DNA of 64,000 nt from an uncultured Candidatus Rokubacteria bacterium (GTDB taxonomy: Bacteria > Methylomirabilota > Methylomirabilia > Rokubacteriales > CSP1-6), in assembly GCA_963771355.1 (NCBI GenBank), contig CAVYTA010000006.1:1408001-1472000 (forward strand), read 5' to 3'. Made by a program: the position numbers and the translations under genes. Below are positions 20,161-22,329 of the stretch, in pieces. Each line of letters starts with the position of its first letter. Position 1 is the stretch's first letter. The notes beneath the pieces are model-generated. The model worked only from the letters and a program-made list of their open reading frames with translations. It was not told the DNA's origin and did no database searches.

Positions 20161-20922
20161 ATGAGCGACGACAGGAAGCTCGCGATGTTCATCGACTTCG
20201 AGAACATCGTGCGCGGGGTCAAGGAAGCGCAGTACAAGCAGTTCGAGATCAAGCTGGTGCTGGAGCGGCTCGTCGAGAAGGGCAAGATCATGGTGAAGCG
20301 GGCCTACGCGGACTGGAACCGCTACACCGAGTACAAGCGCCCCTTCCACGAGCACGCCATCGAGCTCATCGACGTCCCCCAGAGCCGGTATAGCGGCAAG
20401 AACTCGGCGGACATCCGGATGGTGGTGGACGCCATGGACCTCGCCTACGCCAAGCAGTACATGGACACCTTCGCGCTGGTCTCGGGCGACTCCGACTTCT
20501 CTCCCTTGGTCTCGAAGCTACGGGAGAATGATAGGTATGTGATAGGGCTCGGGGTGAAGTCGTCCTCCTCCGAGCTGCTCGTGGGCAACTGCGATGAGTT
20601 CATCTTCTACGAGGACCTCATCCGCGAATCCCGGAAGACCACCGCGCTCCGCGGGCTCCCGGAGAAGAAAGCCGAGGCCTTCGCCCAGCTCATCGAGGCG
20701 ATCCTCGCGCTGCAGCGCGAGAACAAGGACACCCTCTGGGGTTCCATGGTCAAGCAGACCATGATCCGGAAGAACCCGGCCTTCAACGAGACGTACTACG
20801 GGTACTCGACCTTCTCCAAGCTCCTCGAGGAGGCCGAGAAGCAGAAGATCCTCACTCTCGAGCGCGACGCGAAGAGCGGCACGTACATAATTACCTCCCT
20901 CGAGGAGGGCCGCGCCGCCTAG
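20161..20922 (+). CDS. NYN (LabA/DUF88) domain protein with C-terminal OST-HTH
   Basis: FIDFEN, KRAYADW, KNSADI, SGDSDF, CDEF, YGYSTFSKLL; TATAAT at 20115-20120. Confidence 0.93.
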   Translation: MSDDRKLAMFIDFENIVRGVKEAQYKQFEIKLVLERLVEKGKIMVKRAYADWNRYTEYKRPFHEHAIELIDVPQSRYSGKNSADIRMVVDAMDLAYAKQYMDTFALVSGDSDFSPLVSKLRENDRYVIGLGVKSSSSELLVGNCDEFIFYEDLIRESRKTTALRGLPEKKAEAFAQLIEAILALQRENKDTLWGSMVKQTMIRKNPAFNETYYGYSTFSKLLEEAEKQKILTLERDAKSGTYIITSLEEGRAA

Positions 20923-21116
20923 CCCCGGCGGGGCGTCCGGCCGCGATGCGTGGCGGCCGATTTTTGCTCCGCGCGCCCGTCGATCTTGCCTCACCTCGGG
21001 GTCTCGCGTATTGTGAACTCACCCCTGAAGCTACCCTATGGTGCTGCGGTTGAACCGGATGCATTCGATCGCTGACTCAGATAACGAGACGCCGGATCAC
21101 GAGACGAAGGAGAAGC

Positions 21117-21722
21117 GTGACGCGAACGGCAAGCCTGGCCGCCCTGGCGCTGGCCCTCTGGGTGAGCGCGTGCTCCGGCCAGACGGATCGAACCACGGCG
21201 GGCTCCATCACGGTGGATCCCGTGATGACCAAGGGCCCCGCGGAGGCCGTCGTCACCATCGTCGAGTTCTCGGACTACCAGTGACCCTTCTGCAAGCGAG
21301 CCCAGCAGGTGCTGGGCCAGGTCATGGCGGAATTCCCGGGTCAGGTGCGCCTGGTCTTCAAGGACTTCCCGCTCGACTTCCACGACCGCGCCCGGCCGGC
21401 GGCGCGGGCGGCGCGCTGCGCGGGCGAGGCGGGACGCTTCTGGGAGTACCACGACCTGCTCTTCGTCGGCCAGTCAGACTTGAGCCAGGAGCGCCTGCTC
21501 CAGTACGCGGACCAGGTGGGCATGGGCCGCGAGACCTTCGCGCGATGCCTGGACGGCGAGCGCTTCCAGACGGAAGTGGAGAAGGACCTGGACGAGGGCC
21601 GCGCGCTCGGGGTGACCGGAACGCCGACCTTCTTCATCAACGGCCGCCGGCTGGTGGGCGCGCATCCGGTCGAAACCTTCCGCGAGGTCGTGCGCGAGGC
21701 TCTGGAATCTGCCCGGCGCTAG
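21117..21722 (+). CDS. DsbA/BdbD-like thioredoxin-fold lipoprotein, selenoprotein (UPFC active site)
   Basis: AAGGAG RBS + GTG, lipobox VSAC, VTIVEFSDYQ-TGA-PFC in frame with the downstream DsbA body (KDFPL, GVTGTPTFFING). Confidence 0.88.
21300..21317 (+). promoter_or_regulatory. Bacterial SECIS hairpin
   Basis: GCCCAGC-AGGT-GCTGGGC stem-loop starting 16 nt after the in-frame UGA (21282-21284), with G in the apical loop. Confidence 0.75.
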
Positions 21723-21758: not shown

Positions 21759-22091
21759 ATGAGCGAGGCAATGACGAGTCACTTCGTGAGCACCGCGGAC
21801 GTGCCGTGGGTGGAGCGACGCCCGGGCGTGTTCTGGAAGACAGTATGGGAAGACCCGGATGGCCGGCACAAGGCCATCCTCATGCGGTACGCGCCGGGGG
21901 CCGTCATTCCCCGGCATCGCCACCTCGGGGACGAGCAGATCTACGTGCTCGAGGGCAGCGTCGCCGACGAAACCGGAGTATGCACCGCAGGCAACTATGC
22001 CCGGCGCCCGCCGGGCTGCGTCCACAGCGTCCGGAGCGAGACGGGTGCGCTCGTCTTCGCCGTGACGTCGGGACCCACGGAGGCCGTCTGA
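21759..22091 (+). CDS. ChrR-like cupin domain protein
   Basis: PGAVIPRHRHLGDEQIYVLEGS...PPGCVHS. Confidence 0.88.
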   Translation: MSEAMTSHFVSTADVPWVERRPGVFWKTVWEDPDGRHKAILMRYAPGAVIPRHRHLGDEQIYVLEGSVADETGVCTAGNYARRPPGCVHSVRSETGALVFAVTSGPTEAV

Positions 22092-22092
22092 G

Positions 22093-22329
22093 ATGGAGCG
22101 TCGCGTGAACCACGTCCGCAAAGCGCTGGGAATGAGAATTCGCGGGCTCCGCAAGGAGCGCGGCTGGAGTCAGGAAGCGCTGGGCGAACGCTCCGCGTTG
22201 TCCGGCAAGTTCATCGGCGAGGTCGAGCGCGGCGAGAAGTCGATCTCGGTGGACAGTCTCTACCGCGTCTCGGTCGCGCTGAAGATCCAGTTGCGCAAGC
22301 TCATCGACCTGCCCGCGCGCCCGCAGTAG
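22093..22329 (+). CDS. XRE family helix-turn-helix regulator
   Basis: LGMRIRGLRKERGWSQEALG...IGEVERGEKSISV. Confidence 0.9.
   Translation: MERRVNHVRKALGMRIRGLRKERGWSQEALGERSALSGKFIGEVERGEKSISVDSLYRVSVALKIQLRKLIDLPARPQ

What the first reader, a model, noticed from the sequence alone, without database searches (positions are those of the whole stretch)
21117..21722. Hidden selenoprotein: DsbA-like lipoprotein with a UxxC active site and SECIS
Seen in sequence: the ORF track splits this gene, but the frame from GTG 21117 reads lipobox...EFSDYQ-UGA-PFC, placing UGA (21282-84) exactly at the nucleophilic Cys of the CPFC motif, followed by a perfect 7-bp hairpin with a G-containing loop. Established: bacterial Sec insertion needs such a hairpin just 3' of the UGA, and Sec-containing DsbA-like families are known. 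Inference: an extracytoplasmic Sec thiol oxidoreductase, apparently co-transcribed with a cupin and an XRE regulator.
Basis: partly seen in the sequence, partly recalled or inferred. Interest (0 to 1): 0.7.

Follow-up and report, generated by a model that had tools for sequence, protein, structure and literature searches.

The report
Selenocysteine-containing exported DsbA-fold enzyme
The apparent stop codon in the middle of this soil bacterium's gene sits exactly at the catalytic cysteine of a disulfide-handling enzyme and is conserved with a matching RNA hairpin across its relatives, so it most likely encodes selenocysteine; this is a real gene that databases cut short, but it belongs to an already catalogued kind of selenoprotein.

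Summary
Confirmed. 21117-21722 reads as one 201-aa protein with a single in-frame TGA (21282-84) in EFSDYQ-U-PFC. A 7-bp hairpin starts its loop 22 nt downstream and meets all four published bacterial SECIS rules. The genome has selB, selC, selD and selA; selA's +1 base is absent from contigs of two runs, so it is probably an assembly slip. Of the 90 best matches in 200 phylum genomes, 66 have one in-frame TGA. A hairpin of at least 5 bp is found in 35 of 36 TGA orthologs but 1 of 7 Cys orthologs, and dN/dS after the TGA is 0.13-0.49. The model has a DsbA fold (closest TsdA, BdbD, ScsC). It files under the listed 'DsbG-like' (PF13462, UxxC) selenoprotein class but misses the NF041057 cut-off and forms its own Rokubacteria-type clade. 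The lipobox is lineage-specific. The cupin/XRE operon is plausible but unproven. Whether it oxidises or reduces substrates is open: DsbB was found in 0 of 61 genomes. The scan had already noted other Sec genes in this genome, and Sec-VKORs on other DNA.

The parts
21107..21112 (+). Shine-Dalgarno-like AAGGAG, 4 nt before the GTG start
   Evidence: sequence
21117..21722 (+). Full coding sequence, 201 aa when TGA is read as Sec; DsbA-fold thiol-disulfide oxidoreductase
   Evidence: Pfam PF13462 110 bits and PF01323 96 bits; AF2 pLDDT 90.3; Foldseek
21117..21173 (+). Signal peptide ending in lipobox V16-S17-A18-C19 (Cys codon 21171-21173); lipidation is predicted
   Evidence: sequence; Cys at this site in 11 of 26 orthologs; lspA in genome
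21282..21284 (+). In-frame UGA at the attacking position of the U-P-F-C motif (Sec56)
   Evidence: present in contigs of runs X2 and X7
21291..21293 (+). Resolving Cys59
   Evidence: invariant in 104 aligned proteins
21300..21317 (+). Bacterial SECIS-like hairpin, 7-bp stem, loop AGGU at 21307-21310
   Evidence: rules from PMC13188914
21417..21548 (+). Cys101 (21417-19) and Cys144 (21546-48) in the helical domain; a predicted structural disulfide
   Evidence: both at least 90% conserved; analogy with the second disulfide described in PMC3792642
21621..21626 (+). Thr169-Pro170, the expected cis-proline loop
   Evidence: P170 invariant, T169 nearly invariant
21759..22091 (+). Downstream ChrR-like cupin gene, a possible operon partner
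   Evidence: PF12973 83.7 bits; within 1.5 kb in 19 of 26 orthologous loci
22093..22329 (+). XRE-family HTH regulator gene, 1 nt after the cupin stop
   Evidence: PF01381; within 1.5 kb in 22 of 26 orthologous loci
20938..20959 (+). Terminator-like hairpin after the upstream NYN-domain gene (20161-20922), suggesting the Sec gene starts its own transcript
   Evidence: consensus scan only: 2 found, 1.4 expected by chance

Best explanation
This is one intact gene whose in-frame UGA is most likely read as selenocysteine, giving a predicted exported DsbA-fold enzyme with a U-P-F-C active site that likely exchanges disulfide bonds on envelope proteins. SelB loaded with Sec-tRNA would bind the hairpin 22 nt downstream and insert Sec56 (established bacterial mechanism; inferred here). 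The signal peptide would export the protein, and in this lineage Cys19 would anchor it as a lipoprotein. Sec56 would attack and Cys59 resolve, cycling through a Se-S bond, with Cys101-Cys144 likely structural. For direction I commit to a disulfide donor (oxidase) like BdbD or TsdA at about 50%. It may be re-oxidised by the thioredoxin domain of a VKOR fusion where one exists, or by small oxidants. Shown: frame, codon, machinery genes, conservation, fold model. Inferred: Sec insertion (about 95%), export (about 90%), lipidation (about 70%), direction (about 50%).
For: Machinery above curated cut-offs: selA 555 bits, selB 367, selD 266, tRNA-Sec 69 bits with a TCA anticodon; selC, selA and selB are clustered on C7. 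Of the 90 best matches (E<=1e-57, all family f1) in 200 phylum genomes, 66 have one in-frame TGA and 24 have none (counted by hand). In 43 orthologous loci read codon by codon, 36 have TGA and 7 have TGC/TGT at this column, followed by 143-149 open codons. A stem of at least 5 bp with a G-led loop occurs in 35 of 36 TGA rows, 1 of 7 Cys rows and 22% of background positions. Pairing: 83% of cells against 17-44% when slid; 14 cells change on both sides, reached by 0 of 500 shuffles. dN/dS after the UGA is 0.13-0.49 in 8 of 8 pairs. The model is DsbA-fold with no confident N-terminal domain, and its best structural hits are C. diphtheriae DsbA/TsdA, Wolbachia DsbA2, BdbD and ScsC (TM 0.66-0.76 among the top ten). 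It is the only strong PF13462 gene in the genome.
Against: There is no protein-level evidence. The assembled selA has a +1 frame break at C7:113220 that cuts off about 75 N-terminal residues. Contigs of runs X1 and X8 lack that base and 5 of 5 relatives are in frame, but X8's contig has only 23 letters on one side and no raw reads were available. selA was not found in 9 TGA-bearing genomes. I re-checked 5: three have selB at a contig end, and two (G014, G206) gave neither selB nor selC but have a TGA-bearing selD. One TGA ortholog (L011) has only a 3-bp perfect stem. The tool warns that relatedness inflates the shuffle control, and the independent-pairs test was uninformative, with 2 pairs. 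Against the oxidase direction: DsbB in 0 of 61 family genomes, VKOR in 33 of 61, and 12 of 12 fetched VKORs carry their own thioredoxin domain.
Confidence: 0.88

Rival explanations
1. Same selenoprotein, opposite direction: an envelope reductase, isomerase or repair enzyme (DsbG- or ScsC-like), kept reduced by CcdA or DsbD.
For: CcdA/DsbD membrane domain in 61 of 61 family genomes. DsbB in 0 of 61, and no VKOR found in 28 of 61. This genome has a DsbD-like gene and a ccdA next to a TlpA-like gene. ScsC and Wolbachia DsbA2 are among the top folds. A Se-S bond is usually harder to reduce than S-S (recalled).
Against: No oligomerisation domain in the model, which isomerases usually need (requirement recalled). 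The DsbD N-terminal domain was found in only 16 of 61 genomes. CcdA is explained by cytochrome c maturation (recalled). The same family puts TGA in the thioredoxin domain of its VKOR fusions in 11 of 12 loci, so Sec seems compatible with oxidising roles.
Confidence: 0.35
2. The Sec gene is real in the family, but this strain cannot decode it because its selA is truly frameshifted, so only a 55-aa stub is made.
For: The assembled selA is split between two frames. No raw reads of the source strain were seen.
Against: Contigs from two runs lack the extra base. A second frame break, in the VKOR-thioredoxin fusion, suggests indel slips in this assembly. selB, selC, selD and another TGA-motif gene are intact.
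Confidence: 0.05
3. Pseudogene: a TGC-to-TGA nonsense mutation.
For: TGA is one step from a Cys codon, and the single hairpin is not significant against synonymous recoding (P=0.11).
Against: The same TGA is kept across many genera. Selection continues downstream. The hairpin tracks the TGA.
Confidence: 0.01
4. Two separate products (a 55-aa peptide plus a restart at GTG 21309 or ATG 21324), or UGA read as Trp or Cys.
For: Gene callers record 132-137-aa fragments, some 96-99% identical to this one.
Against: The restart codons are not conserved among TGA orthologs. The fragment would lack both active-site residues. The TGA column aligns with Cys, never Trp. The adjacent cupin gene ends at a TGA.
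Confidence: 0.02

Closest known systems
'DsbG-like' predicted selenoprotein class (pfam13462 Thioredoxin_4, UxxC; PMC9312934 table, PMC1794560)
   Same: Same best Pfam family, same UxxC motif, in-frame UGA with a SECIS.
   Different: The 2026 review ties this class to NCBIfam NF041057, whose cut-off this protein misses. No Rokubacteria-type member is named in the passages I read.
NCBIfam NF041057, Rcas_1661 family thioredoxin-like (seleno)lipoprotein
   Same: Only strong NCBIfam hit (E 3e-34); a (seleno)lipoprotein by name, with Sec at the same column.
   Different: 118.7 bits against a cut-off of 190. Family members are about 29-34% identical and most have a D-F-L-U/C-T/S-x-C motif. The two groups are separate, well-supported sides of the tree, although their union is not rejected (AU p=0.093).
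'DsbA-like form 1' selenoprotein (PF01323, UxxC; Sargasso Sea set, COG2761)
   Same: DsbA fold, UxxC.
   Different: That set is COG2761 (FrnE type, recalled). This genome has a separate gene of that type with no signal peptide at C6:856885.
C. diphtheriae TsdA/DsbA (4PWO, 7UNN), B. subtilis BdbD (3EU3), ScsC (4GXZ, 7RGV), Wolbachia DsbA2 (6EEZ)
   Same: Thioredoxin fold with helical insertion; about 30% identity, TM 0.76, rmsd 2.0 A to 4PWO.
   Different: The two aligned residue by residue (4PWO, 4PWP) have Cys, not Sec, at the attacking site. Their recharging partners differ from one another (recalled), so the fold does not fix the direction.

Membership tests
Bacterial selenoprotein (SelB/SECIS-decoded) | In-frame UGA aligned to a conserved Cys of homologs | tested here: met
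Bacterial selenoprotein (SelB/SECIS-decoded) | Consensus SECIS: loop 3-9 nt, stem 4-16 bp, G in first two loop bases, 16-37 nt spacing, MFE <= -7.5 | tested here: met
   4 nt, 7 bp, AGGU, 22 nt, -14.7 kcal/mol; rules from PMC13188914
Bacterial selenoprotein (SelB/SECIS-decoded) | selB, selC, selD in the genome | tested here: met
Bacterial selenoprotein (SelB/SECIS-decoded) | Intact selA | tested here: inconclusive
   Frame break in the assembly; base absent in contigs of 2 runs, one with a short flank; in frame in 5 of 5 relatives
Bacterial selenoprotein (SelB/SECIS-decoded) | Selenium in the protein | not testable with these tools
   needs 75Se labelling or MS
DsbG-like selenoprotein class (PF13462, UxxC) | PF13462 domain with a UxxC motif | tested here: met
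   110 bits against a cut-off of 23.2
NCBIfam NF041057 Rcas_1661 | Score of at least 190 bits | tested here: not met
   118.7 bits
NCBIfam NF041057 Rcas_1661 | One clade with family members | tested here: inconclusive
   separate in both best trees; AU p=0.093
DsbA-like form 1 (COG2761/FrnE type) | FrnE-type sequence | tested here: not met
   FrnE chains match only at E about 2e-5, against 1e-18 for DsbA/TsdA; the genome's FrnE-type genes match weakly
DsbA-type oxidase | Thioredoxin fold with helical insertion, CxxC and cis-Pro loop | tested here: met
   cis geometry itself not inspected
DsbA-type oxidase | Re-oxidation by DsbB or VKOR | tested here: inconclusive
   DsbB 0 of 61; VKOR 33 of 61, fused to its own thioredoxin in 12 of 12 fetched
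DsbA-type oxidase | Oxidising redox potential and oxidase activity | not testable with these tools
   needs biochemistry
True DsbG/DsbC isomerase | N-terminal dimerisation domain | tested here: not met
   the confident model begins near residue 31; residues 15-27 have pLDDT under 50
Lipoprotein | Signal peptide with lipobox Cys; signal peptidase II in genome | tested here: met
   V-S-A-C19, lspA; lipobox consensus recalled, no predictor run, lipidation not shown

The most novel reading that the evidence does not exclude
An uncatalogued lineage in which an ordinary exported DsbA-type enzyme gained selenocysteine independently, kept it as a housekeeping gene across an abundant soil bacterial family, and lost it again about five times while selA stayed. 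Together with the Sec-bearing VKOR-thioredoxin fusions and CxxU VKORs of the same family, this could form a selenium-based disulfide-bond pathway in an envelope that lacks DsbB.
Probability: 0.25. Interest if true: 0.6.

Novelty: new member of a known kind. Interest (0 to 1): 0.3.

Why it matters
It corrects a systematic mis-annotation: databases hold only catalytically dead 132-137-aa fragments of a gene common in this soil family. The close Sec and Cys orthologs are a natural set for asking what selenium adds to a DsbA-fold enzyme. The apparent repeated Sec-to-Cys changes in genomes that keep selA are of modest note, since the 2026 review calls such changes rare outside FdhA and SelD. The class itself has been listed since 2006 and lacks biochemistry in the passages I read, so this is useful rather than surprising.

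Tried and rejected
(1) Hairpin stability alone is not significant, so I did not use it as main evidence. (2) RNA runs X15 and X16 have contigs over parts of the gene and across the dsbA-cupin gap and the cupin-XRE junction, but contigs cannot show strand or a single transcript, so the operon remains unproven. It cannot measure how far the Sec form extends. (4) The careful trees did not finish; all trees are quick trees with SH-aLRT support only. Three duplicate rows were dropped. Parsimony gives 6 changes with the outgroup, but starred branches force only 2 within the clade, so 'five reversions' is a best-tree reading. (5) Independent pairs of Sec loss with hairpin loss: 2 pairs, p=1. (6) An independent origin from NF041057 is not shown (AU p=0.093). 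(7) The BSepDB paper and its one held supplement (a species list, cut when stored) had no DsbA, DsbG or Rokubacteria rows, and the database itself could not be searched, so this gene may already be in it. (8) No complex prediction with VKOR was run: it is an enzyme-substrate pair and this genome's VKOR gene has a frame break. (9) One alignment used wrong coordinates and one motif search of VKOR loci failed; these were redone and 91/93. (10) Paper searches for a described Rokubacteria Sec-DsbA found none; the library lacks most subscription journals.

Full report
Observation. From GTG 21117 the frame runs 201 codons to TAG 21720-22 with one internal stop, TGA 21282-84, giving EFSDYQ-U-PFC. The ORF list has only the 137-aa tail, and the protein database holds 132-137-aa fragments up to 99% identical. 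The hairpin at 21300-21317 has a 7-bp stem, an AGGU loop, 22 nt spacing and -14.7 kcal/mol. It meets the four rules of the consensus bacterial SECIS as given in PMC13188914 (passages read). Alone it is weak: synonymous recoding gives 7 bp in 11% of draws, and 3.6% of background codon positions do as well. Contigs of runs X2 and X7 cover the codon with no change listed there.

Machinery. selA, selB, selD and tRNA-Sec all pass their curated cut-offs, and ARAGORN calls a TCA-anticodon tRNA-SeC. The selA match covers only model positions 67-454, because the assembly has its N-terminal part in another frame. One base at L001:1489 is absent from a contig of run X1 (45 letters of left flank) and one of run X8 (23 letters), each otherwise identical. 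Five of five relatives are in frame. I read this as an assembly indel but saw no raw reads. selA was found in 51 of 61 related genomes. It was not found in 9 genomes that carry the TGA form. In 5 re-checked, three have selB at a contig end, and two gave no selB or selC but a TGA-bearing selD, which fits gaps in fragmented assemblies.

Conservation. In 200 phylum genomes, 116 of 126 family members have a match at E<=1e-30. Of the 90 best matches, all from this family, 66 have one in-frame TGA and 24 none (counted by hand from the listing; 80 weaker matches were not listed). In 43 orthologous loci read directly, 36 have TGA and 7 a Cys codon at this column, each followed by 143-149 open codons. 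dN/dS over the 140 codons after the UGA is 0.13-0.49 in 8 of 8 pairs. A stem of at least 5 bp with a G-led loop is present in 35 of 36 TGA rows, 1 of 7 Cys rows and 22% of 4462 background positions. In 33 distinct TGA rows, 83% of cells pair against 17-44% when slid, with 14 two-sided changes (0 of 500 shuffles; relatedness is not controlled). Three rows of this genus use a shifted hairpin with a GGA or AGGAG loop. Distant homologs from other phyla have Cys: 78 of 80 loci, and one of the two TGA rows is a record titled Ca. Rokubacteria. Titled records inside the clade are labelled Ca. Rokubacteria or Methylomirabilota, so the organism is inferred to be of that group.

What the protein is. Pfam gives Thioredoxin_4 (110 bits) and DSBA (96 bits). 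The AlphaFold2 model (mean pLDDT 90.3) shows a thioredoxin fold with a helical insertion and no confident N-terminal domain. It matches C. diphtheriae DsbA/TsdA (TM 0.76, rmsd 2.0), Wolbachia DsbA2, BdbD and ScsC (sequence search). C59 and P170 are invariant and T169, C101 and C144 nearly so in 104 proteins. A second disulfide and a Thr before the cis-Pro are described for a related oxidase in PMC3792642 (passages). A lipobox Cys is present in 11 of 26 orthologs; the other 15 have Cys-free signal peptides (read by eye). Export is therefore general and lipidation lineage-specific. lspA is present. It is the only strong PF13462 gene in the genome.

Mechanism. SelB-directed Sec insertion, export and U56/C59 exchange are inferred from established knowledge. 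The direction is open. This genome has no DsbB, one VKOR-thioredoxin fusion and two CcdA/DsbD genes. In 61 family genomes DsbB was found in 0, VKOR in 33, the DsbD N-domain in 16 and the CcdA/DsbD membrane domain in 61. All 12 fetched VKORs carry their own thioredoxin domain, 11 with TGA in its motif. The fold without an oligomer domain and the nearest structures favour an oxidase (about 50%). The partner pattern keeps a reductase or repair role close behind (about 35%).

Neighbourhood. The gene follows a NYN-domain gene and a terminator-like hairpin, which is within chance expectation. The cupin starts 36 nt after the stop and the XRE gene 1 nt after the cupin. Within 1.5 kb, NYN is present in 23, cupin in 19 and XRE in 22 of 26 orthologous loci, and in none of 4 paralog loci. 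A small ferredoxin-like gene follows the stop in some relatives. The whole block is syntenic, so adjacency does not show a shared function, and the RNA contigs cannot show one transcript.

Comparison with known families. Reviews list a 'DsbG-like' UxxC selenoprotein under pfam13462 (PMC9312934, passages) or NF041057 (PMC13188914), first tabulated in 2006 (PMC1794560, passages). The 'DsbA-like' class is COG2761 (PMC1088965, passages). The same review reports a Methylomirabilota genome with 63 predicted selenoproteins. This protein scores 118.7 bits on NF041057 against a cut-off of 190. In quick trees the 36 Sec and 9 Cys orthologs form one strongly supported clade, nearest to longer Cys paralogs and apart from 14 NF041057 members. 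The union of the two groups is not rejected (AU p=0.093, 42 of 149 rows). With the active-site residues masked, the best tree needs 6 changes, read as one gain and five losses, but starred branches force only 2. selA was found in 22 of the 24 genomes with the Cys form. Searches found no paper on this clade (listings only). BSepDB's text and its held, truncated supplement gave no rows.

Verdict. A real selenoprotein gene with high probability, of a listed kind, in a lineage known to be selenium-rich. It works like a DsbA-fold thiol-disulfide oxidoreductase, fits the DsbG-like PF13462 UxxC class, and is not a member of NF041057 by score. Interest 0.3.

Noticed in passing
L185-L195 (e.g. G122:C107:4412-4870, G128:C82:12062-12511): A stand-alone VKOR-family protein with C-P-L-TGA (CxxU) and a conserved hairpin with a GGUC loop, in 10 of 251 phylum genomes but not in this one. 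VKOR does not appear in the 2026 review and no NCBIfam model fits. The scan noted this family earlier on other DNA.
   Followed up: partly
L169-L180: VKOR-thioredoxin fusions with W-TGA-P-A-C in the thioredoxin domain and a hairpin with a GUU-centred loop in 11 of 12 loci; this genome and G004 have W-C-P-H-C.
   Followed up: partly
G000:C5:257290 (L141): This genome's VKOR-thioredoxin fusion is split between two frames in the assembly, while 12 of 12 relatives are in one frame; probably another assembly indel.
   Followed up: partly
G000:C7:113220 (L001:1489): +1 base in selA in the assembly, absent from contigs of two runs.
   Followed up: yes
G000:C6:856885, minus strand: FrnE-type DsbA-like gene with EYSDYL-TGA-PWC and no signal peptide; probably a second selenoprotein of the listed 'DsbA-like form 1' class.
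   Followed up: partly
G000:C4:225335 (L005): selD lies in an 817-aa open frame, apparently fused to an upstream domain, with Cys rather than TGA in its motif.
   Followed up: no
L023 (G024), L049: Cys orthologs that keep the hairpin stem but begin the loop with C: likely remnant SECIS elements after a Sec-to-Cys change.
   Followed up: partly
rows in G119, G121, G016, G118, G206, G035, G202, G120, G203: Weak CcdA/DsbD-domain matches with one in-frame TGA in nine family genomes; possible further selenoproteins, or matches that run across a gene end.
   Followed up: no
window 20161-20922: The NYN/LOTUS-domain gene is unusually conserved (83-99% identity across the family).
   Followed up: no
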